64,000 bases of DNA from Planctomycetota bacterium (GCA_019636275.1 JAHBXY010000002.1:56213-120212), one strand, 5' to 3'; counted from the first letter of the stretch, positions 21,609 through 42,437 are shown. Numbers and translations: made by a program. Notes: generated by a model from the sequence alone, not told the origin.

Positions 21609-21677
21609 GGACTCTCCTGGGCGCGTGGACGGCCGGTCCGCAACGCGGAGCCAGCCGGGTACAGCCGCAGGAGAGCG

Positions 21678-22076: not shown

Positions 22077-22153
22077 GAGTCTGCACGGAATGCTACGGCC
22101 GTCTCGGAGCGAGCGCCAGAGGCAAGATCGGCCACAACGGAACTCTTCAGCGA

Positions 22154-24786: not shown

Positions 24787-24790
24787 ACGC

Positions 24791-25144: not shown

Positions 25145-25167
25145 GATCGACTCCTTGGGTTGATGGG

Positions 25168-28287: not shown

Positions 28288-30053
28288 TACTCGCCCTCGC
28301 AACAGCCGGCGCCGATGCTGCCCTTGAGGATCTCGGTCTTGAGGAGGAACGCGCCGACCGAGACGACGGCCTCACCGTCCGAGAGGCCCGCGAGCACCTC
28401 GACGTGCGTGTCCGTCGCGCCGCCGAGTTGCACCTTCCGCGGCAGGAAGGCCGTGTCGCCCTCCGGGAGGAAGACGACGTTGCAGCAGCCCTCCCACTGC
28501 ACGGCCTCCCTCGGCACGAGCAGCGCGTCGCCTCGGTCGGAGAGGGTCACCTGCGCCGTGCCGAACAGGTTCGCGCGCAGACGGCCGTCGCCGTTCTTCA
28601 GCTCCGCGCGCGCCTTGAGCGTGCGCGTCCGTCGGTCGACCTCGCTCGAGATCCACGTGATGTGTCCCGAGAAGCTCTCCCCCCGCAGCGCATGAACCGC
28701 GAACACGACCGGCTGGTCGGGCGCGATCCGCGCGATCGCCGCCTCCGGCACGTCGAGCAGCGCCCACATGGTGTCGGTGTCGACGATCGTCAGCAGCGGC
28801 TGCCTGGTCTCCACGACCTGGCCGCGGACCGCGTCTCGCCTCACGACCACACCGGCGAAGGGGGCCCGGATCGCGAGCGTCGAGTCGCGCGCGTTTGCGC
28901 CACCTTCGCGGACCTTCGCCGCCTGGTCAGCGGTGAGCCCGATGCTTCGGAGGCGCTGCTCAGCCCTGGCCAGGTCCGCCTTCACCTCCGTCCTGCGAGT
29001 ATCCGCGTCGATCACGGCGCGCTGCGTGCCCAGCCCTCGCTCGACGAGGCCCAGCTCGCGGGCATGGTTCCGCTCCCACAGCTCGAGCATCGAGACCGCG
29101 GTCGTCAGCTCGGACTTCGCGGCGCCGAGCTCCGGCGACTCGATCGACGCGAGGACCGCGCCCTCTTCGACCCAGTCGCCGAGCTTCGCGTTGACCTCCA
29201 CGACCGTGCCCGGAACGCGCGAGGACACCTCCGCGCGACGGTCCGCGGCGTAGACGATCTCCACGTTCACGGTCGTCAGGTCGCGGAACGGCGCGCGCAC
29301 CACCGGCGTCGTCACGATCCCGGTCTGACGCACGACGTCCGCCGAGGCGAGCTGGATCTTCTGGGCGTGCTTCCGACAGCCGACGACCGGCGACGAATGC
29401 CGCCGCGCCTCCGGCGACATGGGCGCGCTCGCCGGCGGCGGCGCGGCGAGCCGCGGGTTGCAGATCACGCACTGGCTCTCGGGCACCTCGTGCTCGGCGC
29501 ACCAGTCGAACGTCTTCTTGAAGGCGGGGATCAGCGCCGCGTTGCAGCGGGTGCACAGCGCCTCGGGCACGCCGTGCTCGGTGCACATGCCCCGTTGCTC
29601 GACGAGGGCCGGCGAGCAGATGAAGCAGATCGCCTCCGCAACGCCGTGCTCTCCACAGAACGCGCCTTCGCCTTGACCATGACCCGACCCGCCCGGCGCG
29701 GGCGGCTTGTGTCGGCCCGCGACCTCCGGGTTGCAGGTGACGCACTGCGACTCCGGCAGGTTGTGCTCCGCGCACCAGTCGTTGATCGCCTTGAACGCAG
29801 GGATGACGTCCTTGTGGCAGCGGGTGCAGATCGCCTCGGGGACGCCGTGTCCGCCGCAGAAGCCCTTCGTCTCGAGGAGCGCGGGCGTGCAGAACGGACA
29901 CTCCGCCGTCGACAGCGTGTGCGGACACGTGCCCGTCGCCGCCGCCGCGGGCCCCACGCCTCGACTGCGCATGACGTGGAAGCGATAGCCTGCGCCGACC
30001 AGGAGCAGGACGAGGATCCCGGCGAGCGCCAGGTTCTTCTTCGTGGTGTTCAT
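28287..30053 (-). CDS. RND membrane-fusion adaptor with an N-terminal array of four C-x-(E/G)H-x-(V/L)PE-x-x-C-x-x-C modules and C-terminal Cys pairs (EGCCN, GAGCCEGE)
   Basis: GGGAGGA RBS; TM anchor LALAGILVLLLVGAGY; CGGHGVPEAICTRCH, CAEHNLPESQCVTCNP, CGEHGVAEAICFICSP, CTEHGVPEALCTRCN, CAEHEVPESQCVICNP; HlyD-like core. Confidence 0.8.
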   Translation of the reverse strand: MNTTKKNLALAGILVLLLVGAGYRFHVMRSRGVGPAAAATGTCPHTLSTAECPFCTPALLETKGFCGGHGVPEAICTRCHKDVIPAFKAINDWCAEHNLPESQCVTCNPEVAGRHKPPAPGGSGHGQGEGAFCGEHGVAEAICFICSPALVEQRGMCTEHGVPEALCTRCNAALIPAFKKTFDWCAEHEVPESQCVICNPRLAAPPPASAPMSPEARRHSSPVVGCRKHAQKIQLASADVVRQTGIVTTPVVRAPFRDLTTVNVEIVYAADRRAEVSSRVPGTVVEVNAKLGDWVEEGAVLASIESPELGAAKSELTTAVSMLELWERNHARELGLVERGLGTQRAVIDADTRRTEVKADLARAEQRLRSIGLTADQAAKVREGGANARDSTLAIRAPFAGVVVRRDAVRGQVVETRQPLLTIVDTDTMWALLDVPEAAIARIAPDQPVVFAVHALRGESFSGHITWISSEVDRRTRTLKARAELKNGDGRLRANLFGTAQVTLSDRGDALLVPREAVQWEGCCNVVFLPEGDTAFLPRKVQLGGATDTHVEVLAGLSDGEAVVSVGAFLLKTEILKGSIGAGCCEGE

Positions 30054-30221
30054 GCGAGTCCTCCCGCTCCGCGAAGTCGCGGAGTCGGTGCCGGGTGCGT
30101 GGTGTTCTTGAAGCGTGAACGCGGACCACGCGCCGCCGTGAGACGACGGCGACGCGCTGGTCGCGTGGACGTGCAGGGGCACCGTGGGCGGAGTCTCTCC
30201 GCGAACGGCGACTACACGGAG

Positions 30222-30620
30222 CTACGCTCGGGGCGGGTGAAAGACCTCGAGCGGCTGCACATGGCGAGCGCCGGCGCGGTCGAGCGTCGACGACCGAGCA
30301 CCGGGCAGATCAGCCACGACAGACGGACCAGCGTCCGTGCCGAGGGGTAGCCCACCGCAGCAGCCGCAGTGACATCCCGAATCGCAGCCGTCCTTCGGGA
30401 CCGGTGCGCCGGCGTCGTTCTCGACCGCGAGGCCGTCGTCGCAGCCGTCGCTGCCGTCCGCGGGGATGCTCGGGCAGCACGCCGAACCGTGGGAATGAGC
30501 GGCCTCCGACCGGAACGCGTCGAGCGGGATGTGCAGCACCAGCACGCCCACGATCAGGGCGAAGCAGATCAGCGAGGTGAACCCGGCCGGGCGATGCACA
30601 GGCTGCGACCGTACCAGCAT
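30222..30620 (-). CDS. small membrane-anchored Cys-rich protein (HSHGSACCP...CDDG...DGCDSGCHCGCCGG)
   Basis: N-terminal TM helix; 12 Cys in 132 aa; upstream of the third RND operon on the same strand. Confidence 0.45.
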   Translation of the reverse strand: MLVRSQPVHRPAGFTSLICFALIVGVLVLHIPLDAFRSEAAHSHGSACCPSIPADGSDGCDDGLAVENDAGAPVPKDGCDSGCHCGCCGGLPLGTDAGPSVVADLPGARSSTLDRAGARHVQPLEVFHPPRA

Positions 30621-30650
30621 GTCGTTGAGCCATCAAGCTTCAGTAAGCTC

Positions 30651-30908
30651 ATGCCGAGGATCTGCATGATCGAGCCCGCCACGACCTACCTTCTCCTCCT
30701 TCTCGTGCAGGCGCTGCACCTGCTGCATCACCGCCTTGCGAAGCGGCACATCAGCTTCGCCGAGGTCACCTCGGCCGCCGTCCTCTGCGTCCCGTTGACG
30801 GCGCCGGCGCCCGCCTGGCTGTTCTGCTCCGTGCACCTGGCCCTCGTCGCCGTGCAGGTGATCGGGAGCGTGTGGATCCGTCGGCTTTCGCCGGACTGGG
30901 GTAAGTGA
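30651..30908 (+). CDS. small hydrophobic membrane protein, unknown function
   Basis: High GC3; two hydrophobic helices; stop overlaps GTG of the next ORF (GTGA). Confidence 0.35.
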   Translation: MPRICMIEPATTYLLLLLVQALHLLHHRLAKRHISFAEVTSAAVLCVPLTAPAPAWLFCSVHLALVAVQVIGSVWIRRLSPDWGK

Positions 30909-31123
30909 GCCGTGTGGCCGCGACCGTCGAGGTCGTCACGACGTACGCGCTCAGCGTGCGCACCGGCGCCTGGACGGGCAACTCGGTCACCGGCCAGACG
31001 AACACGGGCCAGATGCATGTGCGCGTGCAGCAGAGCCGCGACTGGGTCCTCGCGCAGTTCGACAACCGTACCGGCTGGATTCAGATTCACGGCGACTACA
31101 CGCACACCGTCTCGCCGGGGTGA
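30905..31123 (+). CDS. small SH3b-like (bacterial SH3) domain protein
   Basis: YALSVRTGAWTGNSVTGQTNTGQMHVRVQQSRDWVLAQFDNRTGWIQIHGDY fits the SH3_3 pattern (LxVRxG...G..V.V....W..V....G.GWI); high GC3. Confidence 0.35.
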   Translation: MSRVAATVEVVTTYALSVRTGAWTGNSVTGQTNTGQMHVRVQQSRDWVLAQFDNRTGWIQIHGDYTHTVSPG

Positions 31124-31585
31124 TCGGCTGACGGCCGCAAGGGCGAGGCATGCCCGCCGCATGATGCGGGCGAGATGGATCGGATTCGCGTGGTGTGGAA
31201 CTCCTAAGTCCAGTGGCCGCACACCATCCTCCAGGAGTCGGATGGGCCGGGTAGTCTAGCCGCAGGGCGGCTTTCATCGCTTTAAATGTTTCTGCTCGCG
31301 ATCCTGCAGTTTTGACGACTTAACCCGTGCTGCGCCAGCTGTCCGGTTTGATGTGGCAGGGCTGTTCTGCCAAATTGACAACGTGGCGCTGGGTCAGGGT
31401 TCATCCTGCGTCGGTTGCGCGTGGCCCGCCCTGTGCAGGTGAGGTGCGGCCAGGCGTTCGACTCCGGTCTGCCCCAAACCCACACCGAACCATCGGCGGT
31501 GCGGTCCCGGGCGGCGACTTTGAAGGTTGTTCCTCCGGGAGGGCCAACGTCGCGGTCAGTCGTGCTCGGGCGGTGGAGGGAGCTC

Positions 31586-32788
31586 ATGAGTACACGCCCC
31601 ACGAAGGAGGGACCACGCCCGACCAGGCGAACGCGCCCTGGCCCCGCTGACGCGATGAGCAGGCACATTCCTCCCGCAGTTCGGTGCTCTCTCTGGGGAC
31701 GGGCTTCAGGTCGTTGCGAGTTCTCGGGCTGCAACCGTGCCGTGTCGTGGCACGCGGTGACGATGGAGGCGGGCAACTTCGCGGAAGTCGCGCACATCGT
31801 CGGGTTCAGCAAGGACGGACCCCGCGGTGAGGCCTTCCTCTCCGCGGACCTCGCCAAGGACGTTTCGAATCTCATGCTCCTCTGCCGTGGGTGTCACGAC
31901 CTCGTCGACAAGGACCCCACGAACTATACGGTGCATGTGCTCCAGGACATGAAGCTGGCCCATGAGCAGCGCGTGGAGCTGGTCACGGGCATCGCCGAGG
32001 AGAAGAAGAGCCACGTCCTGCTCTACTCCGCCAACGTCGGCGACCACGGTCCGGCGTCTACGTTCCAGCGGGCTGCGACCGCCATGTCCCCCGACTCGTA
32101 TCCGGCAGAGACGTATGCGATCTCACTTGGGTTCTCGAACAGCGCCATTCGCGACACCGACGACGACTTCTGGGCGATCGAGCAGAGGAACCTGACCGCG
32201 TCCCTGAAGGAGCGGCTGCGACCTCGGCTGGCTCGAGGCGGCGACATCTCCCACCTCGCCATCTTCGCGGTCGCGCCTCAGCCGCTGCTCATGCAGCTCG
32301 GATTCTCGCTGTCCGACATTCCTTCGGCCGAGACCTTTCAGCTGCATCGTGAGCCTCCAGGTTGGAAGTGGCGCTCTCACCCGCCGCGGTCACGGTTCGT
32401 TGTTGTGGAGCCGACCGAGATACGCGGGGCCCCAGCCCTCGTGCTCTCGTTGAGCGCGTCCATCTCGCCCGAGCGCGTCAAGGCTGTCCTGGGCGAGGAC
32501 GTGACGATCTGGACCCTCACGGTCGACGAGCCGCACAACGATTTCCTGCAATCGCGACAGCAGTTGAAAGAGTTCCGCGAGACGGTCCGGCCGCTCCTTG
32601 ACCTGATCAAGCTCAAGCACGGCGAGAGCTCGTTGCTGCACGTCTTCCCTGCCATGCCCGTCTCGACTGCGGTCGACTTCGGTCGTGTGCTCATGGCCAA
32701 GGCCGACCTGCCGATCAGGGTCTACGACCAGAACCGGTCCAAGGGCGGCTTCGTCCATGCTTTGGATCTCGTGTCGAGTCCTTTGTAG
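31586..32788 (+). CDS. cap5: CBASS effector, Cap5-like: N-terminal HNH endonuclease + C-terminal SAVED domain
   Basis: HNH motif CSLWGRASGRCEFSGCN...AEVAHIVGF...LMLLCRGCHDLVDKDP; SAVED-like halves HLAIFAVAPQPLLMQLGFSL / LLHVFPAMPVSTAVDFGRVL; GGAGGG RBS before ATG 31586 (alternative ATG 31655). Confidence 0.65.
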   Translation: MSTRPTKEGPRPTRRTRPGPADAMSRHIPPAVRCSLWGRASGRCEFSGCNRAVSWHAVTMEAGNFAEVAHIVGFSKDGPRGEAFLSADLAKDVSNLMLLCRGCHDLVDKDPTNYTVHVLQDMKLAHEQRVELVTGIAEEKKSHVLLYSANVGDHGPASTFQRAATAMSPDSYPAETYAISLGFSNSAIRDTDDDFWAIEQRNLTASLKERLRPRLARGGDISHLAIFAVAPQPLLMQLGFSLSDIPSAETFQLHREPPGWKWRSHPPRSRFVVVEPTEIRGAPALVLSLSASISPERVKAVLGEDVTIWTLTVDEPHNDFLQSRQQLKEFRETVRPLLDLIKLKHGESSLLHVFPAMPVSTAVDFGRVLMAKADLPIRVYDQNRSKGGFVHALDLVSSPL

Positions 32789-32803
32789 GACGAGAGGGCC
32801 AAC

Positions 32804-33536
32804 ATGGCAGAGCACCTTTCACCGGAGCGCATGGAGCAGTTCAGCCGCATCCTCGGGGATCTGGCCGACGACCTCGATGTTCCACCGTCGAAGTATGAGG
32901 AAGCGAAGGAGCACTACGACGCGGTAGGGGCGTGGCTGAACGACAGCCCCGACCTGGCCGCCCTGAACCCGACCATCTACCCACAGGGGTCCTTCGCTCT
33001 TGGCACCGCGATCAAGCCGGTTGGCGATGGCGACTATGACGTCGATGCCGTCTGCGTACTCCAGCTCAGCACCGCGACCACGACCCAGCACGCAGTGAAA
33101 ACTCTCGTCGGTGATCGCCTGAAGGAGAACAAGACGTATGCCCGCATGCTGCACCCCAAGGCGGGTGGGCGTCGTTGTTGGACCCTCAAGTACGCTGACT
33201 CGTCCAACTTTCATCTCGACATCTTGCCGGCCGTTCCCGATAGCCAAAGGGAGCTTGTCCGGCTCGGCGTCCCGCCCGAGATCGCGAAGTACGCAATCTG
33301 CATCACCGATCGCGAGCTCTGGGCCGTCGCGTTGACCTGGCCGCGGAGCAACCCGCAGGGCTACGTCGAGTGGTTCAAGTCGCGGATGCGCGTTGTCTTT
33401 GAAGAGCGTCGCCAGCTACGCGCGCTTGAGATTCGCGCCTCGGTCCAGGACATTCAGGACTATCAGGTCCGAACGCCCCTTCAACGTCTCATTCAGCTCC
33501 TGAAGCCCACGTTCCAGAGATCTCGGCCGTGCTCCG
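32804..33536 (+). pseudogene. nucleotidyltransferase (SMODS/CD-NTase-like; GS...DxD motif), N-terminal fragment interrupted by an IS1634-family insertion
   Basis: YPQGSFALGTAIKPVGDGDYDVDAVCVL; reading frame runs into the IS inverted repeat at ~33537. Confidence 0.55.
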
Positions 33537-35688
33537 CCCAATTATGTGTCTGCCAGAGTGGGGCTGAGTCGTCCTGCGCGTCCTCGGCGACGGGCTACTT
33601 CGCCTTCTTGGCCCTCCAGCCGCGGTGGCGTGGCTTCGGCTCCGCGAGTTGGGCATAGGCGACGCCAGGATCCGTCAGCATCGAGTGGTTGAGCAGCTCG
33701 AGCGCGTCACGCTGTGCGGTCGTCATGTTCGTCACGGTCACGCCGGGCACCCCGTCGACGCGGATCGTGTTGATCCCCTCGAAGAGACGGAAGACGACCT
33801 CCGTGGTCGGTCGCGTGGTCCAGCCCTTGTTCCCCGGGAAGTCGGCCCCGTGCTGCTCGAGGAGGCGGCGCACCTCCCGCTGGATGAGCGCGTAGACCAT
33901 CAGGGCCAGCACGTAAACGAGACCGAGCGCCGCGATCCGGGCGTCGGTCTTCAGGAACAGCGGCGCCACCTGTTGTGGATTCTTGAAGATCCGGATCGCG
34001 GTCTCGACCAGGTTCTGGTCCTGGTACGTGCGGAAGAGCTCCTGGTCCGAGCAAGCGTCGGGCCCCGTCGACGGGCGGGTCGTGATCAGGACGAAGCAAC
34101 TCTCGCGAAGGATAGCCTCGTCGACGTCGTGCTGGTCGTGTTCGATCGTGAGCACGGCGCGCCATACCGTTTCCATTTCGCGCTGCTCGTCTGCTGGCGG
34201 TCGTCCCGGGCCGGGGCGCTTCGTCGGTCGACGCTCGGCCACCACGCCAGCGACAAGCCGGTGAAGGTCTGGGCCGTGCCGCTCGATCGCGGCCGCAGCC
34301 GCGCGCCGGGCGTCCTCGTCGCACTTGAACTCGCGCTTGCCGAGCCGGACTGCGATCCGTTCGAGGCTCTTGCGCTCCTTGTCTCGTCGCGCCTCGATGA
34401 TCGCCGTCTTCTGCTCGCGCAAGGTCGTGGACTCAACGACGAGAGCGCGGATCGGGAACTCGTGCTCGACGCCGGTCGACTCGTCCTTCCAGCGATAGGA
34501 GAGGGCACACGAGCGGCCGTTCCACTCCTTCTCCGGCTCCGCCTCGAGGTCGTCGACGGCAGTCCCGTCCTCCAGGAACACCTTCGGGTAGACGACCTTC
34601 AGGCGAGTGAGCGGCTCGTCGCGCCCGAGAGCCGCGCGGAAGGCAGTGAACGCCTCCCCCCAGAGCCCGACACCGCGCGGCATCATCGTCAGGACATGGA
34701 AGCCGTGCTTCTGCGCGAGCAGCAGCGTCTCGCCCGAGAAGAGCTTGGCGTCGCCGACGATCGTCGTGCCCCGTGGGTCGGGGAGGACCTCGGCGAGGCG
34801 CCCCATGAGCCAACGGGTCTCCTGCGGGTCACTGCGGTTGCCGGACGACACGCGACCGAGAACGGCGACGCCGCCGTCGCAGGCCACGGCCAGTCCGTAC
34901 ACGATCTGCTTCAGGTCGCTCCGATAGTCCTTGCTGTGGCCTCTCGTGACGTGTGGAACCGCTCGCTCGTCCTCCGGGTCCAACGGCGGCACGCTGGCCG
35001 CATACTCGCCGTAGACCGAGACGGACGAGGTGTCGACGTGAATGGTCCCGAGCTCGAGGTCGTGCACTTTCACCGCACGAACGACGGCTGCAGCTTGGAT
35101 CTTCGTCGGGCCCGCGGCGAACGTGTCGTCGAGCGCCCGGGCCAACCGGTCGTCGTGGAACTGGGCGCAGCTCCCCTTCCAGCCGAACGCCAGCTCGAGG
35201 TCGTACGGCGCGAGGAGCTCGTCGATCCGATAGAGAGTGTGCCGGCCCAGCAGGATCGCGACGATCAGGGCCTCGACGCACTCACCCGCGCTCACACGAC
35301 TGCGCGGGTCCATGGGAACGATCTCGTCCACGAGGGCTGCGACGTCGAGCTGCCGCAGAGCACGTCCAATGATCGGCAAGAAGTCGAGGCGCTTCGCGCT
35401 GGCTTGCATGTGCCCTCTCCTCGCACGCCCGCGTGCGCGGGGCAAGGACAGCACGACAGCGGCCAGCACATCTCCAGCGTCCACGCCTCGCGCGGTCCAG
35501 TTGCGCATCCTTGCGCATCAGAAGCGTCTCCGGAGTGCAGCCGAACGGCGCCACGGAGTGGCCTCCAACACGGAGCTCCAACAGAATGCGCGCGGCGCGC
35601 CAGATGCACGCCAGTCGCCGCGGCTCGCCCCCCTGGGCGGCGGGGCGCCGTCGTCGGCTCTCAGTTGTTTGGCAATTACATAATTGGC
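33537..35688 (-). mobile_element. IS1634-family (IS4 superfamily) insertion sequence, ~2.15 kb, imperfect ~30-bp terminal inverted repeats (ccaattatgt...tgcca...ctgag)
   Basis: IRL 33537-33568 and IRR 35657-35688 are reverse-complementary; large DDE transposase inside. Confidence 0.65.
33595..35409 (-). CDS. IS1634-family DDE transposase (604 aa)
   Basis: Length and motifs typical of IS1634 (HVDTSSVSVYG, DGGVAVLGRV, PRGVGLWGEAFTAF); the antisense 782-aa ORF is rejected. Confidence 0.7.
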   Translation of the reverse strand: MQASAKRLDFLPIIGRALRQLDVAALVDEIVPMDPRSRVSAGECVEALIVAILLGRHTLYRIDELLAPYDLELAFGWKGSCAQFHDDRLARALDDTFAAGPTKIQAAAVVRAVKVHDLELGTIHVDTSSVSVYGEYAASVPPLDPEDERAVPHVTRGHSKDYRSDLKQIVYGLAVACDGGVAVLGRVSSGNRSDPQETRWLMGRLAEVLPDPRGTTIVGDAKLFSGETLLLAQKHGFHVLTMMPRGVGLWGEAFTAFRAALGRDEPLTRLKVVYPKVFLEDGTAVDDLEAEPEKEWNGRSCALSYRWKDESTGVEHEFPIRALVVESTTLREQKTAIIEARRDKERKSLERIAVRLGKREFKCDEDARRAAAAAIERHGPDLHRLVAGVVAERRPTKRPGPGRPPADEQREMETVWRAVLTIEHDQHDVDEAILRESCFVLITTRPSTGPDACSDQELFRTYQDQNLVETAIRIFKNPQQVAPLFLKTDARIAALGLVYVLALMVYALIQREVRRLLEQHGADFPGNKGWTTRPTTEVVFRLFEGINTIRVDGVPGVTVTNMTTAQRDALELLNHSMLTDPGVAYAQLAEPKPRHRGWRAKKAK

Positions 35689-36541
35689 GAAGCCTGGGCC
35701 GAGATGTCTGGAATGCGGGCTGAAGCGCCACCGCGATCTCCGTTACGACGACGACGACGACAAGCCAATCTCGATCATCATCACGACGCTGGCAGCCAAG
35801 GCCTATCGGAACGAGCGGGACCTGGGCTCCGCACTCCTGAACGTCGTTCCCGGAATGCGTCACGGGATCGAGCTGCGCGAAGGCAAGTGGTGGGTCCCCA
35901 ACCCCGTCGACCCGCGCGAAAACTTCGCCGACAAGTGGAACGAGACGCCTCGCAAATACGAGCTGTTCCGTGACTGGCTCCAGGCCGTCGAGACGGAGCA
36001 TCGAGCCCTCCTGAATTCGCTCGGGCCGAAATCGGGGCAAACCGTCGCAAGGCTGTTGTGTGAGTCGTACGGTGCCGACACCTCGAAGGGAGCCATCGAA
36101 AAGTTCGCCCGTCGGAATGACGCCGACACCTTCGTACTTACGGGGCCAAGGAACGCTCAGCGCTTCAGCATCGCGTATCGAGAGAATCCCCTCTGGCCTA
36201 TCTACCTGAAGCACCGCGTGACCATCTCGGGGCGCGCAACCAGGAACGGCTTCACGCCGTTCGCGTTCGAGAACGGTTCCACCGCGATTACAAAGCACTG
36301 TTCGCTTAGCTTCGCCGCGCACACCGACGTTCCCCGACCGTTCCAGGTGTTCTGGCAGGTTGTGAACACGGGCGCCGAGGCGGAGCGAGCCAAGTGCCTC
36401 CGCGGTGACCGCTTCTACCAGAGCGGTCCCACACACGATGAGATCACGCTCTATCGAGGCATGCACTGGGTGGAGTGCTTCGTCGTGAAGGACGGCATGT
36501 GCATCGCGCGGAGCGCCGAGTTCGTCGTCAACGTGCAATGA
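35689..36541 (+). pseudogene. C-terminal fragment of the IS-split nucleotidyltransferase (helical region PISIIITTLAAKAY + C-terminal beta-rich domain, possibly AGS-C-like)
   Basis: No plausible own start (TTG only); continues in-frame sense from the N-terminal fragment if the IS is removed. Confidence 0.45.
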
Positions 36542-36622
36542 CTGAGCCGGTGGCTCGGGCGCCCTAGCGAACAGGATCTCGCCGCAGGTCTCAATCGGAT
36601 CAATTAAAGAAGTGACTGCTGC

Positions 36623-37627
36623 ATGGCCACGACCGTCGACACAGCTTTTGAGGAGTTTCTTCGGACGAAGGTCAATCTCGACCCCGATGACACCGGAGGT
36701 GCCCGTAGGAGCCGCGATTGGCTCCTCGAACTGATCGCAAAGTTCCCGGACACATACGGCGACTTCCCTCTCCTCTACTCCGAACGAGACATTGCCTACG
36801 GCTCGTTCGCCCGTCGAACGAAAATCCGCGAACTCGACGACGTTGACCTGATTTCCTGCCTACACGCCACCGGGGGAACATACGTCGACCAAGGCTTCGG
36901 CGGGCCGATTCAGATCACCGTCCCAGCTTCCAGTCGACTCAGTGATTTTTGCCACGACAACAGCGCTAGCCTCAACTCCATCAAAGTGGTGAATCGTTTT
37001 GTGAAGGCATTGGCAGCCGTGCCGCAGTACAGCTCGGCAGCGATCAACAGGCGCGGCGAAGCGGCCGTCCTCGAACTCACGTCCTATCCATGGAGCTTCG
37101 ACGTCGTCCCAGGATTCTTCACTGCGCCAGACGCGCACGACCGAACCTACTACTTGATTCCAGACGGTAGCGGACACTGGAAGCGGACGGATCCGAGAAG
37201 GGACCGGGACCGGATCGCCAAGGTGAACCAAGACCATGACGGTCACGTTCTGAGCATCGTCCGTCTTATGAAGTACTGGAACCGACGCCCTACGATGCCT
37301 TCGGCACCTTCGTACATGTTCGAGTGCATGATCACGGACTACTACGAGGGGAGAGTTACGAAGGCAGTAAAGTGGGTCGACATCGAGACCGGCCAGGTAT
37401 TGCGGTACATTGCTGAGGCGGTCCTTGGTGTGGTGAACGACCCCAAGGGACTTCAGGGTGACCTGAACTCGCTGACTTTTGAGCAGCGCTGGGCAATCCG
37501 CGAGCGCGCCTTGCTCGATGCTGGACGGGCTGATGAGGCCCGCGCCCACGAGACGAGGAAGGATCATGAAAGGTCGATCAATAAGTGGCGCGAGGTCTTT
37601 GGACCGGAGTTCCCCCCATTTGAATGA
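36623..37627 (+). CDS. cdnX: cGAS/DncV-like nucleotidyltransferase (CD-NTase)
   Basis: YGSFARRTKIRELDDVDLISCL (GS...DhD active site), IVRLMKYWNRR helix typical of CD-NTases. Confidence 0.65.
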   Translation: MATTVDTAFEEFLRTKVNLDPDDTGGARRSRDWLLELIAKFPDTYGDFPLLYSERDIAYGSFARRTKIRELDDVDLISCLHATGGTYVDQGFGGPIQITVPASSRLSDFCHDNSASLNSIKVVNRFVKALAAVPQYSSAAINRRGEAAVLELTSYPWSFDVVPGFFTAPDAHDRTYYLIPDGSGHWKRTDPRRDRDRIAKVNQDHDGHVLSIVRLMKYWNRRPTMPSAPSYMFECMITDYYEGRVTKAVKWVDIETGQVLRYIAEAVLGVVNDPKGLQGDLNSLTFEQRWAIRERALLDAGRADEARAHETRKDHERSINKWREVFGPEFPPFE

Positions 37628-37734
37628 GGACAACGGGGACACGGACCCATACGGTTTGCGCCCGACCTGACGCATGCGGTGTGGCGACGCAAGTGTCGCC
37701 GTGTTGTTATTTGGCAACGAACGTGAGGAATTGA

Positions 37735-38604
37735 GTGAATTCACTTGAGCGCGTTCACGCGTGCTTTCGAGGTGCGGCCGAGATCGCGAAGACAACCACA
37801 AAGACCGGGTTCGTCCTCGAAGTGACAGCCGCCGGATTTGCCATCTGGGGGCTATTTTCAGACGTGCCGCGAATGTGGTTGCCGATCACCGGCTTAGGGC
37901 TCGCATTCGCTGCGTCGTGTGTAAGAGCGCTCGGGAGCCACTGGCGCGCCTTTTCACGCGCATGCGTTAGGACGTCAGCCCGCGCATTCGCCCTAGGAGA
38001 AGACATAGATCCCGCGACACTCTCCAGCATCGAGAGCGATGCCCCGCCGCTCGCGGCACCCTTGGCGAAGTGGCTACCGGCTCAGACCTTGCAAGGGTAC
38101 TACCAGCCACGGTTTCCCGCGGGAGAGGCGCGCTTGCGAGAAATCTATGCAGAATCAGCCTTCTTCACGTGGCGTCTGCTTCGCGTTTTCTTCTGGGCGC
38201 TCCTCCTGCTGACTCTCATCATTGCGGCGGGCGCTTTCGTTGCCCTTTACGGGCTGGTCGTCCAGTCTCCGACTGACGAGAACGTCAAGCGCGCCATCCT
38301 CGAAACATTGTGCTCCGTTACTGTCGCGATCTTTGGGATGAAGGCGGCGGAGCAGACAATTGAGGTCTTCGGCCAGGCTTCGTCCGTTCGTTCAGTAGCG
38401 GATGCCTTGATCCGAGCTCCCCTCCCTTGCGGCAAGGTTCTGGGCGAACTGGTCGACGATTACGACATCCAAATGTCTGCAGGGAAAGATCCTCCGACGC
38501 TGCTCTGGGTCCTGATGCGATCGAGCTTGAACGAACAGTGGAATCGTAGGCGTGAGGCCCTTGGACCTGTTCCCCCGACGGCGACATCGAGCGCGGAACA
38601 GTGA
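37735..38604 (+). CDS. multi-pass transmembrane protein, putative CBASS membrane effector
   Basis: Hydrophobic helices (FVLEVTAAGFAIWGLF; LPITGLGLAFAA; FFWALLLLTLIIAAGAFVALYGLVV; ILETLCSVTVAIFGM) immediately downstream of the CD-NTase. Confidence 0.45.
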   Translation: MNSLERVHACFRGAAEIAKTTTKTGFVLEVTAAGFAIWGLFSDVPRMWLPITGLGLAFAASCVRALGSHWRAFSRACVRTSARAFALGEDIDPATLSSIESDAPPLAAPLAKWLPAQTLQGYYQPRFPAGEARLREIYAESAFFTWRLLRVFFWALLLLTLIIAAGAFVALYGLVVQSPTDENVKRAILETLCSVTVAIFGMKAAEQTIEVFGQASSVRSVADALIRAPLPCGKVLGELVDDYDIQMSAGKDPPTLLWVLMRSSLNEQWNRRREALGPVPPTATSSAEQ

Positions 38605-38702
38605 AACCGGCTGAGCAGCGTCGCGTTTGTCGGGCTGCATACGAGAGTATGTAGGCGAATGTCCGGGCCTCCGCCGTGATGCCTCAGGCTTGAACGGCGT
38701 AG

Positions 38703-39665
38703 GTGCCCAATGTGGGCGAAGGACGCTACGCTGATCTCGTGGAAGAGTCGGACACGCGGTCACGAGAGGACGCTCGCCGTGAGACAACCTGGGCTGGGTG
38801 GTGTGAGGACGTTATTGCCCGCGCGTCACTGGCACCCGGGCATGCCGAACGGGCCCGCTGTCTGCTCCCGCTACTTGTGCCTGACGAAGCTACGGCGGAC
38901 ACGCTCTCGCGGGCCTACGCATCACGCACGACGCAGTCAGCCCGTGCTGCCCTCCGAGCGTCTGTTCGAGCACTCGCCGTGAGTGTGCCTGGTGTGGCGG
39001 ATGGAAGCGTGCTGGTCGCGAGCGAGCTGTTGGAGCTTGAGTCGAGGGAACAGGACGAGACGCTCTCCGGAATCGGTCAGCACGGAGTCGACGGAGACGC
39101 AGTTATCTGGAGCGACGAAGGTCCGACCCTTCGCGAGGGCGACGGAGTGTTGGAGACACGCGCCCTCCTCTCGGCCCTTCTCGAACTGTCGGCGGTCCGC
39201 CCGGCAGTCCAAGAGCTCGGCTTCACCGTGCTCGACGGCGCCACCACGCCGACCTTCCAGCAGGATCTCCGTCGTGCGTGGGCGATCGTCAACGGCGACC
39301 CGGTGCCGTCGACCGCGAGCAACGGCGAGCCGCCGACGCCGGACGCGTTGACGTCAGTGGCCAATGAGCTTCGAGCGCTTCGCGCGGAGGTGGCCCGACG
39401 GGCCACCCCGTACGAGGGGACTGTCGACTGGATCGAGGACGTGGTTGCCGCGCTGCCGCCGCTGCTGGAGCAAGGCGAAGCCGCCAAGGCCCTCGGGGTG
39501 GATCCGCGCACCATCAGGCGCATGATCAACCGGGGCGAGTTGAAGTCCGTTGACGTAGGAGAAGGCGGCCGGGGACGATCTTGCGGCGTACGGATTCCTC
39601 GCGTCGCGATCGCCGACTTCTTGCGCGAGAAGGAAGCGCGCGGCCAGCGACCTTCTTCGCCGTGA
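38703..39665 (+). CDS. hypothetical protein with C-terminal excisionase/AlpA-like HTH
   Basis: EAAKALGVDPRTIRRMINRGELKSVDVG...RIPRVAIADFL; adjacent to integrase. Confidence 0.45.
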   Translation: MPNVGEGRYADLVEESDTRSREDARRETTWAGWCEDVIARASLAPGHAERARCLLPLLVPDEATADTLSRAYASRTTQSARAALRASVRALAVSVPGVADGSVLVASELLELESREQDETLSGIGQHGVDGDAVIWSDEGPTLREGDGVLETRALLSALLELSAVRPAVQELGFTVLDGATTPTFQQDLRRAWAIVNGDPVPSTASNGEPPTPDALTSVANELRALRAEVARRATPYEGTVDWIEDVVAALPPLLEQGEAAKALGVDPRTIRRMINRGELKSVDVGEGGRGRSCGVRIPRVAIADFLREKEARGQRPSSP

Positions 39666-39668
39666 CCG

Positions 39669-41075
39669 CTACGTGGTCGCGGAGTCGATGGAGACGACGG
39701 CGACGCTGCTCGAAGACCCCCGGCGCTTGAGGCGAGCCACGATCGCAGCCACGTCGGCGGTGATGCCCATCGCAGCCTCGAGCGTCTTCGCGGACTTGCT
39801 GATGCCCTTGAGCAGCCCGACATAGTGACGCTCGGCGATCACGATCGAATGGCCGAGGCGCTTGGCGGAGTGGAAAGCGGCGGCGGCCGCGTAGATGCCC
39901 GGCGCGTTGGTCAGGAACGTGCCGCACGTGGCCCGCAGCGCGGGCGTCTCGTCCTCGGTCTGCGACCAGCAGAAGTCCGGCGCACCGAGCTCGTCGACGA
40001 GGCGCTTGCGCGCCGACTCGACCTTGGAACGAGACCAGGGCTCCTTGCCACCGAAGACGTACACGTCGTCCTTTCCGCGCTCGAGGGCCTCCAGGATCTT
40101 CTTGAGGCCCGGGCAGATGCTGAGGTCGATCGCGCGCTCGTGACCCGTCTTGACGTCGCCGGCGCGCAGGACGATCTCCCCTGCCTTCCTGCCCCGGCCG
40201 TCGCGGGCGTCGAAGTCGACGGAGGCCCAGCGGAGCATGAGCGCCTCGTCGCGGCGGCAGCCGGTCAGGAGCATGAAGACGATGAACGGTGCGATCGGGT
40301 CGTACTTCGGGGTGCCGCCCTTCGCACCCGCTGCCTTCTCGGTGCGAGTCATGACGAACGTGCCGGTGTCGTGGCTGAGCGCGGCCTGGAGCAGCGTCTT
40401 GATCTGCGCGACGCGGAGGAAAGCAGGCCGAGGCTTCGCGGTCTTGAGGGGCTTGATGCGGTCCTTGATGTCGTCGGACGTGATGTGAGGCAGGCGGCCG
40501 ACTCGGCGGAGCTGGTTAAGGATCGCCTTGACGGAGCGCAGGCGGTTGTTGACCCCACCGGGGGAGCAGGTGCGATCGCTCGGCGCGCGCTCGGTGCGGC
40601 GTCCGCCCTTGACGGGCCTCTTGGCGGGCCTCGCCGCCAGCCACTCGACGAACGCGGCCAGGTGGTGCGGCCGGAGATCGTCGGCGAGACGGATCCGGTT
40701 GATGTTCGCCCACTCGAGGAAGATCGTCGTGGCGGTGCGGTAGGTCTTTGGGGTGGACCCCTTGAGCCGCGCGCCCTTGGTGCTGAAGTAGCCCTCGATC
40801 GCGTCCGCGAGAGACGCGCCGGTGTGTGTCGCCGCCCCCGTGGCGAGCTTGCGCTCGCGTTCGCCCAGCGCGAGGGACTTCGTGATCATCCACTTCCGGC
40901 GCCCCTCCGCGGTCGTGATCCCCTCTGGCTCGAAGGAGAACTCCCGCGGCTTCCCGGTGTCCGGGTCGAACCAGCGCGCGCGGAGGTCGAGGCCGGCTGC
41001 GCTCCGTCGCTTGACCTCGAACACGCCCGGATGGGCCGACCTGGCCCTCCGGCGCTGCACCTTCTTCACGATCAC
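39669..41075 (-). CDS. int: tyrosine-type site-specific recombinase / phage integrase
   Basis: C-terminal catalytic region LLTGCRRDEALMLRW ... HSAKRLGHS ... ERHYVG; N-terminal SAM-like domain. Confidence 0.8.
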   Translation of the reverse strand: MIVKKVQRRRARSAHPGVFEVKRRSAAGLDLRARWFDPDTGKPREFSFEPEGITTAEGRRKWMITKSLALGERERKLATGAATHTGASLADAIEGYFSTKGARLKGSTPKTYRTATTIFLEWANINRIRLADDLRPHHLAAFVEWLAARPAKRPVKGGRRTERAPSDRTCSPGGVNNRLRSVKAILNQLRRVGRLPHITSDDIKDRIKPLKTAKPRPAFLRVAQIKTLLQAALSHDTGTFVMTRTEKAAGAKGGTPKYDPIAPFIVFMLLTGCRRDEALMLRWASVDFDARDGRGRKAGEIVLRAGDVKTGHERAIDLSICPGLKKILEALERGKDDVYVFGGKEPWSRSKVESARKRLVDELGAPDFCWSQTEDETPALRATCGTFLTNAPGIYAAAAAFHSAKRLGHSIVIAERHYVGLLKGISKSAKTLEAAMGITADVAAIVARLKRRGSSSSVAVVSIDSATT

Positions 41076-41085
41076 CTCCGATCGG

Positions 41086-41146
41086 CTCAGTCAACAAGCC
41101 AGTCAACAATAGCGCGTCCGTCGGGGTCCGTGCGAGTCCGTCGGAG
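41086..41146. promoter_or_regulatory. direct repeats (2 x agtcaacaa; 2 x (c/a)gtccgtcgg(g/a)g) between integrase start and tRNA fragment, candidate arm-type recombinase-binding sites
   Basis: Seen in sequence; related GTCAA(C/T)A motifs recur at 41325 and 41337 on the other side of the tRNA fragment. Confidence 0.3.
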
Positions 41147-41199
41147 TTCCGTAAATGCCTGTGCGGCAACGTATCTACTGACGGCCCAGGAGGCCTGGC

Positions 41200-41246
41200 C
41201 GTGACTGAAAATCACGGAGTCGGCGGTTCAAGTCCGCCCTCGTCCA
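41200..41246 (+). other. 3' fragment of a tRNA-Phe(GAA) gene (anticodon arm, variable loop, T-arm, acceptor 3' strand + discriminator A); 5' half absent. Putative att site of the integrase
   Basis: cgtga-CTGAAAA-tcacg (anticodon GAA), gagtc, ggcgg-TTCAAGT-ccgcc, ctcgtcc-a; upstream sequence cannot form acceptor or D stems. Confidence 0.55.
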
Positions 41247-41260
41247 TGCGGTAAGAGAAG

Positions 41261-41287
41261 AAGGCCCCGGCGGTCGCGCCGGGGCCT
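41261..41287 (+). terminator. perfect 12-bp GC-rich hairpin (aaggccccggcg-gtc-cgccggggcctt) followed by cttctgcgtt, likely the original tRNA terminator
   Basis: Seen in sequence 15 nt after the tRNA fragment. Confidence 0.5.
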
Positions 41288-41708
41288 TCTGCGTTCCGGC
41301 GGAGCCGCGGTCGTTCAGTCAATACGCCGGTCAACATTCGCGCGGGCCATGGCCGCGCCCGATGACAACGGGCCGCCTCTCGTGGTCAGGAGCCGCACTC
41401 CTGATCCAAGGGGCTCGCGTGCGCGTGCCCCCTCCTGAGCTCACAGGGTGGAGCTTCTTCGGCGCGGTCGCGGACTGGGCTGCAGCACGAGGCACCGAAC
41501 CGGTGCCAGGAGAGCTGCATGTCCCTTCTGCTTCTCGACCTCGACGCCCGCGTCCGCGTCGCCATGATCGCGGAGCTCGATCGCGACCTCGCCGGCGACG
41601 GCCCCTTCATCTCGCCGCGGCTCACGCCGCCGGGGGTCGCGCTCGTGGAGCTCGTGAGCGTGGCGGCCCGCCAGGCCGCGACGGTCGGCCGGAACGAGGT
41701 CTGCCCTC

Positions 41709-42437
41709 GTGGTGCGCCCGGCGCGAACGGGAAGCGGAAGAAGTTCAAGAACTGCTGCCTGGTCCCGCTCGATCGCGTGGGGCCGCCGGCAGGGAGCGGC
41801 GGTGGACGACGAACTGATCGACGACCTGGTCGAGCGCGACGCGGCCGTGTCGGTGTGGCGCTTCCACGAGGAGCCGCGCGCGCTGTGGTCGGTGATCCGC
41901 GACTTCCTGGGCGGCGGCGGTCACGCGCCGAACGCGGCGCACGTGGCGCTGGCGCGCCTGCCGCTCGCGGGCGTCGTCACGCAGAACGTCGACGGCCTGC
42001 ACCAGGCGACCGGGACGCGCGCGCCGATCGTCGAGCTGCACGGGTCGCTCCTGGCGACCCGCTGCGACGCGTGCGGCGCGCGCGGGCCGGCGTGCGCGGC
42101 GCTGCTCGACGGGCCGCTGCCGCCCCCGTGCGCCTGCGGCGCCGCCCTGCGGCCCGACGTCGTGCTCTTCGGCGAGTGGGTCGCGCCCGACCGGCTCGCG
42201 CGGGCGCGGGCGCTCGTCGAGCGCTGCGACCTCTTGCTCGTCGTCGGCACGGCGGCCGACGTGTCGCCCGCGGCCGACCTCGTCCGGCTCGCCGCGGCGC
42301 GCGGGGCGCCGGTCGCCGAGGTCAAGCGGCGGCCGTCGTGCCTGCACGAGGCGGCAGGTACGCGGCACCTCCCGGGGGCGGCGGAGGACGTGCTGCCGGC
42401 GGTCGTCGAGCGCCTGCGCGCGCGGGGGACGGCGTGA
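41709..42437 (+). CDS. Sir2-family (CobB-like) protein lacking the N-terminal Rossmann GAGIS motif (truncated/frameshifted)
   Basis: PNAAHVALARL...VVTQNVDGLHQ...ELHGS...CDACG...CACG zinc ribbon; in-frame stop at 41655 prevents N-terminal extension; upstream frame (41519-) has coding GC3 and a SEC-C-like motif KRKKFKNCC. Confidence 0.55.
   Translation: MVRPARTGSGRSSRTAAWSRSIAWGRRQGAAVDDELIDDLVERDAAVSVWRFHEEPRALWSVIRDFLGGGGHAPNAAHVALARLPLAGVVTQNVDGLHQATGTRAPIVELHGSLLATRCDACGARGPACAALLDGPLPPPCACGAALRPDVVLFGEWVAPDRLARARALVERCDLLLVVGTAADVSPAADLVRLAAARGAPVAEVKRRPSCLHEAAGTRHLPGAAEDVLPAVVERLRARGTA

What the first reader, a model, noticed from the sequence alone, without database searches (positions are those of the whole stretch)
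31260..41300. ~10-kb lower-GC island: Cap5(HNH-SAVED), IS-split nucleotidyltransferase, second CD-NTase, TM effector, Xis-like, integrase, tRNA-Phe 3' fragment
GC content drops sharply at ~31.26 kb. The block carries what look like two separate CBASS-type modules back to back and ends in a tyrosine integrase next to a 47-nt tRNA-Phe 3' fragment. The fragment is followed by a perfect terminator hairpin. No matching repeat is visible at the left GC boundary (31.1-31.5 kb). So either the island is much larger, with the metal cluster as its cargo, or the left att has decayed.
Basis: partly seen in the sequence, partly recalled or inferred. Interest (0 to 1): 0.7.

Follow-up and report, generated by a model that had tools for sequence, protein, structure and literature searches.

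The report
Defence-gene slot of a larger island
The 10-kb lower-GC block is the integrase end of a much larger metal-resistance genomic island at a tRNA-Phe site, holding a swappable slot of phage-defence genes; this is an ordinary kind of mobile island.

Summary
The block is not a self-contained 10-kb island.

- **The left edge is internal.** A second assembly (GCA_026184275.1) matches window 4647-41248, metal cluster included, with 2 mismatches in about 22 kb. The chromosome to the right is only about 97% identical to its nearest relatives.
- **The middle is a cargo slot.** A variant island keeps the metal-cluster end (up to 30900) and the HTH/integrase module (from about 38894). It carries different defence genes in between.
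- **The right end is a tRNA site.** The tRNA-Phe piece (41199-41246) is the attachment core. In sister strains the same core sits about 650 nt upstream of an intact TPR-Sir2 gene.
- **The integrase is lambda-like.** Its model matches lambda integrase over its full length, and conserved arm repeats lie beside the core.
- **No intact tRNA-Phe was found** in the window or within 10 kb to its left, so the island is probably longer than 51 kb.
- **A 581-bp window-specific segment** (41249-41829) follows the core. It carries a second copy of the arm repeat and truncates Sir2. It is probably a remnant of a tandem sister element.
- **One CBASS cyclase is split** by an IS1634 insertion.

This is a new member of a known kind.

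The parts
1..30900 (.). Heavy-metal resistance backbone of the island. It holds three RND/MFP/OMP efflux sets, a P-type ATPase, HMBD proteins, an ECF sigma factor, and MerR and MarR regulators. It continues at least 10 kb beyond the window's left end.
   Evidence: Pfam. It is 99.95-100% identical to GCA_026184275.1 contigs over 4647-19532 and 29371-33721. Similarity to the related metal clusters L129-L132 stops at exactly 30900. The leftward continuation L117 carries more Cu/metal genes and no tRNA.
11907..13669 (+). IS5-like insertion sequence (DDE_Tnp_1/DUF772 transposase), with duplication CTA. It is specific to the window.
   Evidence: Pfam. It is absent from the otherwise identical contig L112.
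30666..31123 (+). Two overlapping small genes (80 aa at 30666-30908 and 72 aa at 30905-31123). The recurrent break at 30900 lies at the 3' end of the first, just upstream of their 4-nt overlap.
   Evidence: Gene calls on the identical contigs L110 and L111, alignment A2, and no family hits.
30901..38893 (.). Variable defence-cargo slot, filled here by two CBASS modules. The variant island L132 holds a different 5.5-kb set in this position.
   Evidence: L132 aligns to window 28473-30900 (98%) and 38894-41229 (88%), but not in between. Its cargo matches QatC, RmrA/CapP-like HTH-M78, PDC-S70 and PD-T7-3.
31586..32788 (+). Cap5-type effector (HNH endonuclease fused to a SAVED sensor), 400 aa.
   Evidence: Pfam SAVED 1e-45 with weak HNH. 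PADLOC PDLC00739 1e-143. NCBIfam SAVED.
32804..33505 (+). CD-NTase 1, N-terminal 234 codons (SMODS domain, GS...DxD motif), cut by the IS.
   Evidence: Pfam SMODS/DncV-like. PADLOC PDLC00770 positions 5-236. Reconstruction.
33506..35719 (-). IS1634-family insertion sequence. The transposase is at 33595-35508 (-). It has 23-nt imperfect inverted repeats and a duplication CTGAAG at 33500-33505 and 35720-35725.
   Evidence: The same insertion is present in GCA_026184275.1 and in Logan contigs.
35726..36541 (+). CD-NTase 1, C-terminal 271 codons, including the AGS-C domain.
   Evidence: Pfam AGS_C 2e-31. PADLOC PDLC00770 positions 235-509.
36623..37627 (+). CD-NTase 2 (334 aa), intact.
   Evidence: PADLOC PDLC00802 2e-131. 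NCBIfam CBASS_cyclase_b scores 102 bits, below its cutoff of 200.
37735..38604 (+). Probable 4TM membrane effector of CBASS 2 (289 aa; the start codon is uncertain).
   Evidence: PADLOC 4TM effector E 3.4e-7. Four hydrophobic segments. In GCA_026184275.1 an IS256-like insertion interrupts it at 38369-38376.
39009..39665 (+). HTH_17 / excisionase-like DNA-binding protein. It is called as 218 aa in the sister assembly; the longest ORF here starts at 38703.
   Evidence: Pfam HTH_17 9e-11. TIGR01764 'excise' scores 28.0 bits against a cutoff of 28.8.
39669..41069 (-). Lambda-Int-like tyrosine integrase, 466 aa (MBX3465510.1).
   Evidence: Pfam Phage_integrase scores 26.3 against a cutoff of 27.1. 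R272, K307, R379, H407 and Y416 are invariant in 34 homologues. The AlphaFold model has pLDDT 92. Its best PDB matches are full-length lambda integrase, then Cre.
41087..41147 (+). Integrase-proximal arm with repeated motifs: 2x AGTCAACAA (41089-41109) and 2x GCGNGTCCGTCGGRGT (41112-41147). These are candidate arm-type binding sites.
   Evidence: The motifs are unchanged in the 88%-identical variant L132, while the DNA between them and the core has diverged.
41199..41246 (+). att core, equal to the 3' 48 nt of tRNA-Phe(GAA) from position 26 to the discriminator base.
   Evidence: Sequence. Rfam tRNA 27.3 bits. Identity with GCA_026184275.1 ends at 41248. The same core lies upstream of TPR-Sir2 in sister strains.
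41249..41829 (+). Window-specific 581-bp segment. It contains a perfect hairpin (41259-41290), a second copy of the arm repeat (41315-41344, 25/30 identical to 41087-41116), and an orphan ORF from 41519 with a SEC-C-like motif.
   Evidence: The ORF has no homologues. The segment replaces 1465 nt present in L134 and the second assembly.
41830..42437 (+). 5'-truncated remnant of a TPR-Sir2 gene (annotated as 211 aa, MBX3465511.1). The NAD-binding GAGxS motif and the TPR half are missing.
   Evidence: There is a sharp breakpoint against L127 and L134, which encode 431- and 474-aa proteins. The Pfam Sir2 match starts at profile position 29.

Best explanation
Window 30.9-41.25 kb is the integrase-proximal end of one large integrative genomic island. 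The island is probably longer than 51 kb and sits at a tRNA-Phe gene of an uncultured high-GC bacterium (NCBI MAG 'Planctomycetes bacterium', locus tags KF878_).

**Layout**, left to right: heavy-metal resistance backbone (ends at 30900); exchangeable defence-cargo slot (30901-38893); excisionase-like HTH gene; lambda-type tyrosine integrase (minus strand); arm-type repeats; att core (tRNA-Phe positions 26-73).

**Inferred mechanism.** The integrase binds the arm repeats through its N-terminal domain and recombines the core with the 3' end of tRNA-Phe. An intact tRNA would then lie at the far (left) end, and the displaced 3' fragment would lie beside the integrase, as it does here.

**Cargo.** The slot currently holds two type-I CBASS modules.
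- Cap5 plus a 505-aa SMODS/AGS-C cyclase. This module is dead, because an IS1634 element splits the cyclase.
- A 334-aa cyclase plus a 4TM effector. This module looks intact in this strain.

**The 581 bp beyond the core.** This is most likely the tRNA-proximal end of a second element of the same family that was integrated in tandem. The rest of that element, together with the first ~272 codons (more than half) of the neighbouring TPR-Sir2 gene, was lost by deletion.

**Shown:** gene identities, IS anatomy, the breakpoints at 30900, about 38894, 41248 and 41830, the integrase fold and catalytic residues, and conservation of the arm repeats.

**Inferred:** integration chemistry, total island size, the tandem-remnant history, and whether the island can still move.
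For: - **Shared unit.** Contigs of GCA_026184275.1 match window 4647-19532, 29371-33721 and 36509-41248 with 2 mismatches in about 22 kb. The only other differences are IS insertions. That assembly's right flank is 100% identical to L134. L134 matches the window's right flank at only 96.8-97.9%. The island therefore has a more recent common history than the chromosome, and the change happens exactly at the end of the tRNA core.
- **Cargo slot.** L132 has the same 30900 junction and the same integrase/HTH module, but different defence cargo. L129 has the metal cluster ending at 30900 directly against 74-79% GC chromosomal genes.
- **Native tRNA site.** The core is found about 650 nt upstream of a full TPR-Sir2 gene in sister strains.
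- **Family architecture.** A 38%-identical relative of the integrase (L104) shows the same arrangement: the integrase lies next to a 68-nt tRNA-Arg 3' fragment, the intact tRNA-Arg lies 7.5 kb away at the other end, and 28-nt arm repeats flank the core.
- **Integrase.** The model has pLDDT 92. Full-length lambda Int is its top structural match, covering 441 aligned columns including an N-terminal three-strand sheet. The catalytic residues R, K, R, H and Y are invariant.
- **Repeats.** AGTCAAYA occurs three times in 64 kb, and all three lie around the core. The 30-nt repeat 41087-41116 / 41315-41344 is 83% identical.
- **No att site at the GC boundary.** There is no tRNA or core copy in the window or in the 10 kb to its left.
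Against: - The intact tRNA-Phe and the left end were never seen, so the island's size, and even whether attL still exists, are unknown.
- No conjugation or mobilisation genes were found in the 41 kb examined.
- The source is a metagenome-assembled genome. The island and the right flank could have been joined from two co-existing strains at the shared tRNA core.
- No contig spanning an empty site (intact tRNA-Phe with no island) was recovered.
- The tandem-remnant reading of the 581 bp rests on one 30-nt repeat and on the position of the hairpin. Nothing homologous to that segment was found elsewhere.
- The related metal cluster in L129 lacks the integrase module altogether. So the metal genes can exist without it.
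Confidence: 0.72

Rival explanations
1. The block is a self-contained ~10-kb integrative defence island (CBASS x2, Xis, Int). It landed next to an unrelated metal cluster, and its left att site has decayed at about 31 kb.
For: - GC is lowest in this block.
- Small elements of the same integrase family exist, for example the 7.5-kb element in L104.
- The related metal cluster in L129 ends at 30900 with no integrase block.
Against: - There is no core-like sequence at 30.9-31.6 kb. The T-loop-like motif at 31455 occurs at chance frequency.
- The junction at 30900 is identical in three island variants whose cargo differs.
- The metal cluster shares the block's near-100% identity with the second assembly, whereas the chromosome is about 97% identical to relatives.
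Confidence: 0.1
2. The junction is an assembly artefact. The contig joins an island-bearing strain to the chromosome of a second co-existing strain, either through the shared 48-nt tRNA-Phe core or at 41829/41830. On this reading the window's right flank never carried this exact island.
For: - The source is a MAG.
- Several island variants and several flank variants co-occur in the same sequencing runs.
- Identity drops from about 100% (island) to about 97% (flank) exactly at the core.
- Unitigs in public runs break inside the core.
Against: - The segment right of the core carries the island family's own arm repeat. So that strain has in any case hosted an element of this family at this tRNA.
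- The second assembly independently links the same island end to the same chromosomal neighbourhood.
- No repeat that could cause a false join is visible at 41829/41830.
Confidence: 0.13
3. Window 41087-41344 is an intact attP (arm - core - arm) belonging to this same island. On this reading the island is not integrated through its att site here. It entered the chromosome by another route, with one end at 41829/41830 inside TPR-Sir2.
For: - Arm repeats lie on both sides of the core, with a hairpin where an element would supply a terminator for the rebuilt tRNA.
- The chromosome breakpoint is 581 bp away from the core and lies inside a gene.
Against: - Sister strains have the same core natively at this locus, upstream of Sir2. 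Ordinary att recombination at tRNA-Phe followed by a nearby deletion is therefore simpler.
- The right-hand repeat is only 83% identical to the left one.
- No second junction was found.
Confidence: 0.05

Closest known systems
tRNA-targeting genomic islands with lambda/P4-type tyrosine integrases and defence-gene hotspots. Examples are E. coli defence islands at tRNA hotspots (PMC10121019), Pseudomonas genomic-island defence hotspots (PMC12629846), chromosomally integrated MGEs carrying defence systems (PMC10201445) and pipolins (PMC11551731).
   Same: - An integrase lies beside a tRNA 3' fragment.
- Conserved modules flank a slot whose defence content differs between otherwise similar islands.
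- Adaptive (metal resistance) and defence cargo are carried together.
- The cargo is eroded by IS elements.
   Different: - The host is an uncultured, very high-GC lineage.
- The integrase is too divergent for the Pfam and NCBIfam thresholds and has no sequence match in the PDB.
- The integrase sits at the end far from the intact tRNA.
- The left end and the transfer functions were not seen.
CdnG-Cap5 CBASS (PMC8568899; Cap5 mechanism in PMC12141522)
   Same: A SAVED-HNH effector lies next to a CD-NTase. The expected mode of action is cyclic-nucleotide-activated DNA degradation.
   Different: - The effector gene precedes the cyclase here.
- The cyclase carries an AGS-C C-terminal domain and is interrupted by an IS1634 element, so the module cannot signal.
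- No third gene or Cap2/Cap3 was seen.
- The clade of the cyclase was not determined.
Type I CBASS with a multi-pass membrane effector (PADLOC 'Cyclase' plus '4TM' effector). The type I assignment rests on my own knowledge of the published CBASS classification.
   Same: It is a two-gene module: a 334-aa cyclase followed by a protein with about 4 TM segments.
   Different: The effector match is weak (E 3e-7). In the sister assembly an IS256-like element disrupts the effector gene.
Phage lambda integrase / attP organisation (PDB 5j0n, 1z1g)
   Same: The predicted three-domain fold includes an N-terminal arm-binding-like sheet. Short repeats lie in the arms beside a core.
   Different: Sequence identity is 14-16%. 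The first His of the usual HxxR box is not conserved. Binding of the repeats is inferred only.

Membership tests
Tyrosine-recombinase integrative island at a tRNA gene | Tyrosine recombinase with catalytic Arg-Lys-Arg-His-Tyr and the recombinase fold | tested here: met
   R272, K307, R379, H407 and Y416 are invariant in 34 homologues. The model has pLDDT 92 and Foldseek gives lambda Int and Cre at E 4e-8 to 1e-3. The Pfam score of 26.3 is just under the 27.1 cutoff.
Tyrosine-recombinase integrative island at a tRNA gene | Island end marked by a copy of the 3' part of a tRNA gene next to the integrase | tested here: met
   The 48-nt tRNA-Phe piece is at 41199-41246. Identity to the sister assembly stops at 41248.
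Tyrosine-recombinase integrative island at a tRNA gene | Second copy of the core inside an intact tRNA at the other end (direct repeats attL/attR) | tested here: inconclusive
   There is none in the 64-kb window or in 10 kb further left in related contigs. The rest of the source contig could not be read.
Tyrosine-recombinase integrative island at a tRNA gene | Island absent from the same site in a close relative (empty site) | tested here: inconclusive
   Sister-strain contigs reach the core from the right but stop inside it. No contig spans an empty site.
Tyrosine-recombinase integrative island at a tRNA gene | Excision to a circle / active transfer | not testable with these tools
   This needs reads or an experiment.
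Integrative and conjugative element (ICE) | Relaxase, coupling protein and type IV secretion genes | tested here: not met
   None appeared among the Pfam hits for the large ORFs of window 1-41 kb. The unseen left part could hold them.
CBASS (Cap5 type) | CD-NTase with GS...DxD next to a SAVED-HNH effector | tested here: met
   The motif GSFALG...DGDYDVD is present in the reconstructed protein.
CBASS (Cap5 type) | Uninterrupted cyclase gene (a working system) | tested here: not met
   The IS1634 element lies at 33506-35719, inside codon 234/235.
CBASS (membrane-effector type) | CD-NTase followed by a multi-TM effector | tested here: met
   The cyclase matches PDLC00802 at 2e-131. The effector matches PDLC00724 (4TM) at 3e-7 and has four hydrophobic segments. 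The effector assignment is weak.
Excisionase (Xis/AlpA, TIGR01764) | Small (~60-80 aa) winged-helix protein encoded beside the integrase | tested here: inconclusive
   The HTH_17 domain is present at 42 bits. TIGR01764 scores 28.0 against a cutoff of 28.8. The protein is 218-343 aa, with the domain at its C-terminus, and the gene is convergent with int.

The most novel reading that the evidence does not exclude
The slot between the small 80-aa gene (break at 30900) and the HTH/integrase module (break near 38894) may be a dedicated exchange site. Its fixed edges would let whole defence cassettes be swapped between islands of this family by a specific mechanism, rather than by chance recombination. 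Repeated tandem occupation of tRNA-Phe by family members may also actively erode neighbouring host defence genes. A truncated Sir2 is seen here and a truncated AAA_15 ATPase in the sister strain.
Probability: 0.12. Interest if true: 0.5.

Novelty: new member of a known kind. Interest (0 to 1): 0.3.

Why it matters
The analysis shows what a composition-based '10-kb island' call really was: the variable end of a larger island. It documents, in an uncultured high-GC lineage, a pattern already known from enterobacteria, vibrios and pseudomonads. Metal-resistance and anti-phage genes travel on the same tRNA-integrated element, and the defence content is swapped in a fixed slot beside the integrase. 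The locus also gives a dated snapshot of CBASS decay. One cyclase is split by an IS in all copies seen, and the second module's effector is split in a sister strain. The integrase family has about 90 relatives in 5.8 billion proteins and lies below the Pfam threshold. It is a modest addition to the catalogue of lambda-like integrases. Nothing here challenges current understanding.

Tried and rejected
- **36509 as the left end of a 4.7-kb mini-element.** The contig L001 starts there and L002 differs to its left. I rejected this because 36509 lies 33 nt before the stop of the cyclase gene, whose C-terminus matches its family profile to the last residue. The break is probably an IS or assembly branch in that population. 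This was not proven, and L002's 161 nt remain unidentified.
- **T-loop-like motif at 31455-31465 as a decayed att.** Three Logan contigs start near it. The motif occurs at chance frequency (8 found, 7.6 expected).
- **'The second assembly is a different host, so the island jumped between species.'** I withdrew this after L134-L136 showed that assembly's flank continues into the same TPR-Sir2 neighbourhood.
- **Search for a syntenic relative among GTDB species representatives using Sir2.** The best match was 61% identical and not syntenic.
- **Homologues of the ORF at 41519-41829.** None were found, and there was no Pfam hit.
- **PDB sequence search with the integrase profile.** No hit. The fold search succeeded instead.
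- **Finding the gene upstream of Sir2 in L127 (393 aa) in the source genome by cluster look-up.** It forms a singleton cluster and gave no information.
- **Direct repeats in L096.** This is an integrase relative with a tRNA-Val 4.3 kb away. None were found.
Full report
**What is in the window.** The window falls into three composition zones: about 70% GC from 1 to about 30.6 kb, 57-68% from about 31 to 39 kb, and 73-81% from 41.4 kb onward. The left 31 kb encodes three RND/MFP/OMP heavy-metal efflux sets, a P-type ATPase, HMBD proteins, regulators and an IS5-like element. ARAGORN and Rfam, at their normal thresholds, find no RNA gene anywhere in the window.

**Checking the listed features.** All are real.
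- Cap5 (31586-32788) has a full SAVED domain and matches the PADLOC endonuclease-effector model at 1e-143.
- The gene after it is a CD-NTase cut in two. The N-half matches positions 5-236 and the C-half positions 235-509 of one cyclase model.
- The interrupting element is an IS1634-family IS at 33506-35719, with 23-nt inverted repeats and a CTGAAG duplication. Deleting it in silico gives an open 505-aa protein with the GS...DxD motif and an AGS-C domain.
- A second, intact cyclase (36623-37627; 2e-131) is followed by a 289-aa protein with four hydrophobic segments and a weak 4TM-effector match.
- An HTH_17/'excise'-like protein ends at 39665.
- The integrase (39669-41069) is on the minus strand. 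Its start faces the tRNA fragment.
- The fragment is 48 nt (41199-41246), from tRNA-Phe(GAA) position 26 to the discriminator base. The Rfam tRNA model scores it 27.3 bits against a threshold of 29.
- The hairpin at 41259-41290 is a perfect 14-bp stem. It lacks a T-run.
- There is no second copy of the core in the window.

**Where the window comes from.** Exact-protein look-ups identify the source as an NCBI MAG labelled 'Planctomycetes bacterium' (KF878_ locus tags, contig 175,537 bp). Its right-flank genes have only distant named relatives, in Myxococcota. A second MAG, GCA_026184275.1 (KIT58_ tags), and many public sequencing runs hold pieces of the same region.

**The island is larger than the block.**
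- Contigs of the second MAG match window 4647-19532, 29371-33721 and 36509-41248 at 99.95-100%, with two substitutions in about 22 kb. The only other differences are IS gains. The window has an extra IS5-like element at 11907-13669. The second MAG has an IS256-like element inside the 4TM effector gene.
- The metal cluster, both CBASS modules and the integrase module are therefore inherited as one unit.
- In contrast, the chromosome to the right of the island matches its closest relatives at only 96.8-97.9%. The second MAG's own flank is 100% identical to one of those relatives, L134.
- The jump from about 100% to about 97% happens at the end of the tRNA core. That is the signature of a unit with a separate, more recent history, bounded by an att site.
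- Further left than the window, related contigs and the source's own protein numbering show more copper and metal genes for at least 10 kb, with no tRNA.

**The low-GC stretch is a cargo slot.**
- A 10.3-kb contig from another run (L132) aligns to window 28473-30900 at 98% and to 38894-41229 at 88%. In between it carries 5.5 kb of other genes that match defence models: QatC, an HTH-M78 RmrA/CapP-like regulator, PDC-S70 and PD-T7-3.
- A more distant metal cluster (L129, 89% identical) also stops being similar at exactly 30900, where it meets 74-79% GC chromosomal genes.
- So 30900 is a recurrent module edge, at the 3' end of a small 80-aa gene. Window 30901-38893 is an exchangeable defence slot between a conserved backbone and a conserved integration module.

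**The integration module.**
- The integrase scores just under the Pfam threshold. It has no NCBIfam hit and no sequence match in the PDB.
- Its family of about 90 relatives keeps R272, K307, R379, H407 and Y416 invariant.
- A confident model (pLDDT 92) is most similar to full-length lambda integrase, then to Cre. The model includes an N-terminal three-strand sheet, which in lambda Int is the arm-binding domain.
- Between the integrase start and the core lie two tandem AGTCAACAA motifs and two GCGNGTCCGTCGGRGT motifs. They are unchanged in the 88%-identical variant L132, although the DNA between them and the core has diverged.
- A 38%-identical relative (L104) shows the complete architecture. 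The integrase lies beside a 68-nt tRNA-Arg 3' fragment, the intact tRNA-Arg lies 7.5 kb away at the far end, and a 28-nt repeat sits on each side of the core.
- By analogy, the window shows the fragment end of its island. The intact tRNA-Phe should lie at the far left end.

**The right junction is not simple.**
- Three contigs from sister strains (L134-L136) begin inside the same tRNA-Phe core. They continue through a different hairpin and a truncated AAA_15 ATPase gene, then into a full-length 474-aa TPR-Sir2 gene and the rest of the window's right flank. The core therefore belongs natively at this locus.
- In the window, the 1465 nt that follow the core in those strains are replaced by an unrelated 581 bp (41249-41829). 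Homology resumes abruptly at 41830, inside Sir2, so the window's Sir2 lacks its TPR half and its NAD-binding motif.
- The 581 bp begins with the hairpin and then carries a 30-nt stretch (41315-41344) that is 25/30 identical to the integrase-arm repeat at 41087-41116. The 8-mer AGTCAAYA occurs three times in the 64-kb window, all of them there.
- An arm, a core and a second arm in a row is what the junction between two tandemly integrated elements looks like. I read the 581 bp as the tRNA-proximal end of a second family member, with the remainder lost in a deletion that ran into Sir2.
- Two observations fit repeated use of this site. The second MAG encodes another integrase that is 80% identical. 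A third flank variant also exists (L127).
- This part of the account is inference. The segment has no homologues that I could find.

**Rivals.**
- *A free-standing 10-kb island with a decayed left att.* This is contradicted by the shared 30900 junction, by the co-inheritance of the metal cluster, and by the absence of any core remnant.
- *A chimeric join.* Because the source is a MAG, and island and flank variants co-exist in the same runs, a false join at the tRNA core cannot be excluded without reads. The arm repeat to the right of the core, and the independent linkage in the second MAG, argue that the biology is the same either way.
- *An intact attP carried into the chromosome by another route.* This is possible but less economical.

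**Comparison with known systems and verdict.**
- The locus behaves like the tRNA-associated genomic islands with defence hotspots described in E. coli, Pseudomonas and other bacteria (PMC10121019, PMC12629846, PMC10201445, PMC11551731).
- Its cargo belongs to known CBASS classes. The Cap5 class is characterised in PMC8568899 and PMC12141522.
- It meets the tests for a tyrosine-integrase island end and for the CBASS gene content. It fails the test for a working Cap5 module, because the cyclase is split. It cannot be tested for the second att site or for mobility.
- It is a new member of a known kind, of modest interest.

Noticed in passing
L002:1-161 and L001:1 (window 36509): In runs SRR1797384x and in GCA_026184275.1, the sequence left of window 36509 is replaced by unrelated DNA, or the contig stops there. 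Position 36509 is 33 nt before the stop codon of the split cyclase. An IS or a deletion in that population is likely, but the 161 nt match nothing I had.
   Followed up: partly
window 31456-31459 (L088-L090 starts): Three independent Logan contigs from different runs all begin within 4 nt of each other here. Other contigs (L110, L111) read straight through at 100% identity. The cause of this graph branch is unknown.
   Followed up: partly
L118 (GCA_026184275.1 JAHCJL010000011.1), left of the window: The gene order is a head-to-tail junction of the copper-resistance segment. The far-left OEP gene is followed by a 67-aa RND fragment, then OEP, HMBD and the P-type ATPase again. This suggests a tandem amplification or a circular form of a ~15-kb Cu module in that population.
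   Followed up: no
L001:1869-3758 (inserted at window 38369-38376): An IS256/Mutator-like element with an 8-bp duplication interrupts the 4TM effector gene in the sister assembly. Both CBASS modules are therefore disabled there, whereas only one is disabled in the window.
   Followed up: partly
window 41183-41246: The Rfam tRNA model aligns the fragment together with 16 nt upstream as a tRNA lacking its D-arm, with 5 of 7 acceptor pairs. The upstream part is not conserved in variant L132, so this is probably coincidence.
   Followed up: partly
window 41519-41829: An orphan ORF with high third-position GC encodes a SEC-C-like motif (CPRGAPGANGKRKKFKNCC). Its natural stop appears to have been lost at the 41829/41830 junction. 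It has no homologues and no Pfam hit.
   Followed up: partly
window 43003-44852: 100-nt direct repeats (87% identical) flank a 1.6-kb segment. The segment is present in the window and in L127 but missing in L134. Sister strains also differ by further indels at 48.1-52.7 kb. The 'chromosomal' flank is itself a variable region.
   Followed up: partly
window 52709-56023 and 60432-61721: The right flank carries an HTH-NACHT-FGE-sulfatase protein (bacterial NLR-like) and a LlaJI-type restriction endonuclease. With the Sir2 gene, this makes the neighbourhood of tRNA-Phe rich in defence-like genes outside the island too.
   Followed up: no
P0163 (KIT58_21055, GCA_026184275.1): The sister assembly encodes a second, partial integrase that is 80% identical to the window's. 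A second island of the same family is therefore present in that genome.
   Followed up: no
window 11907-13669: An IS5-like element with a CTA duplication lies between the MerR and MarR regulators of the metal cluster. It is absent from the otherwise identical sister contig L112.
   Followed up: yes
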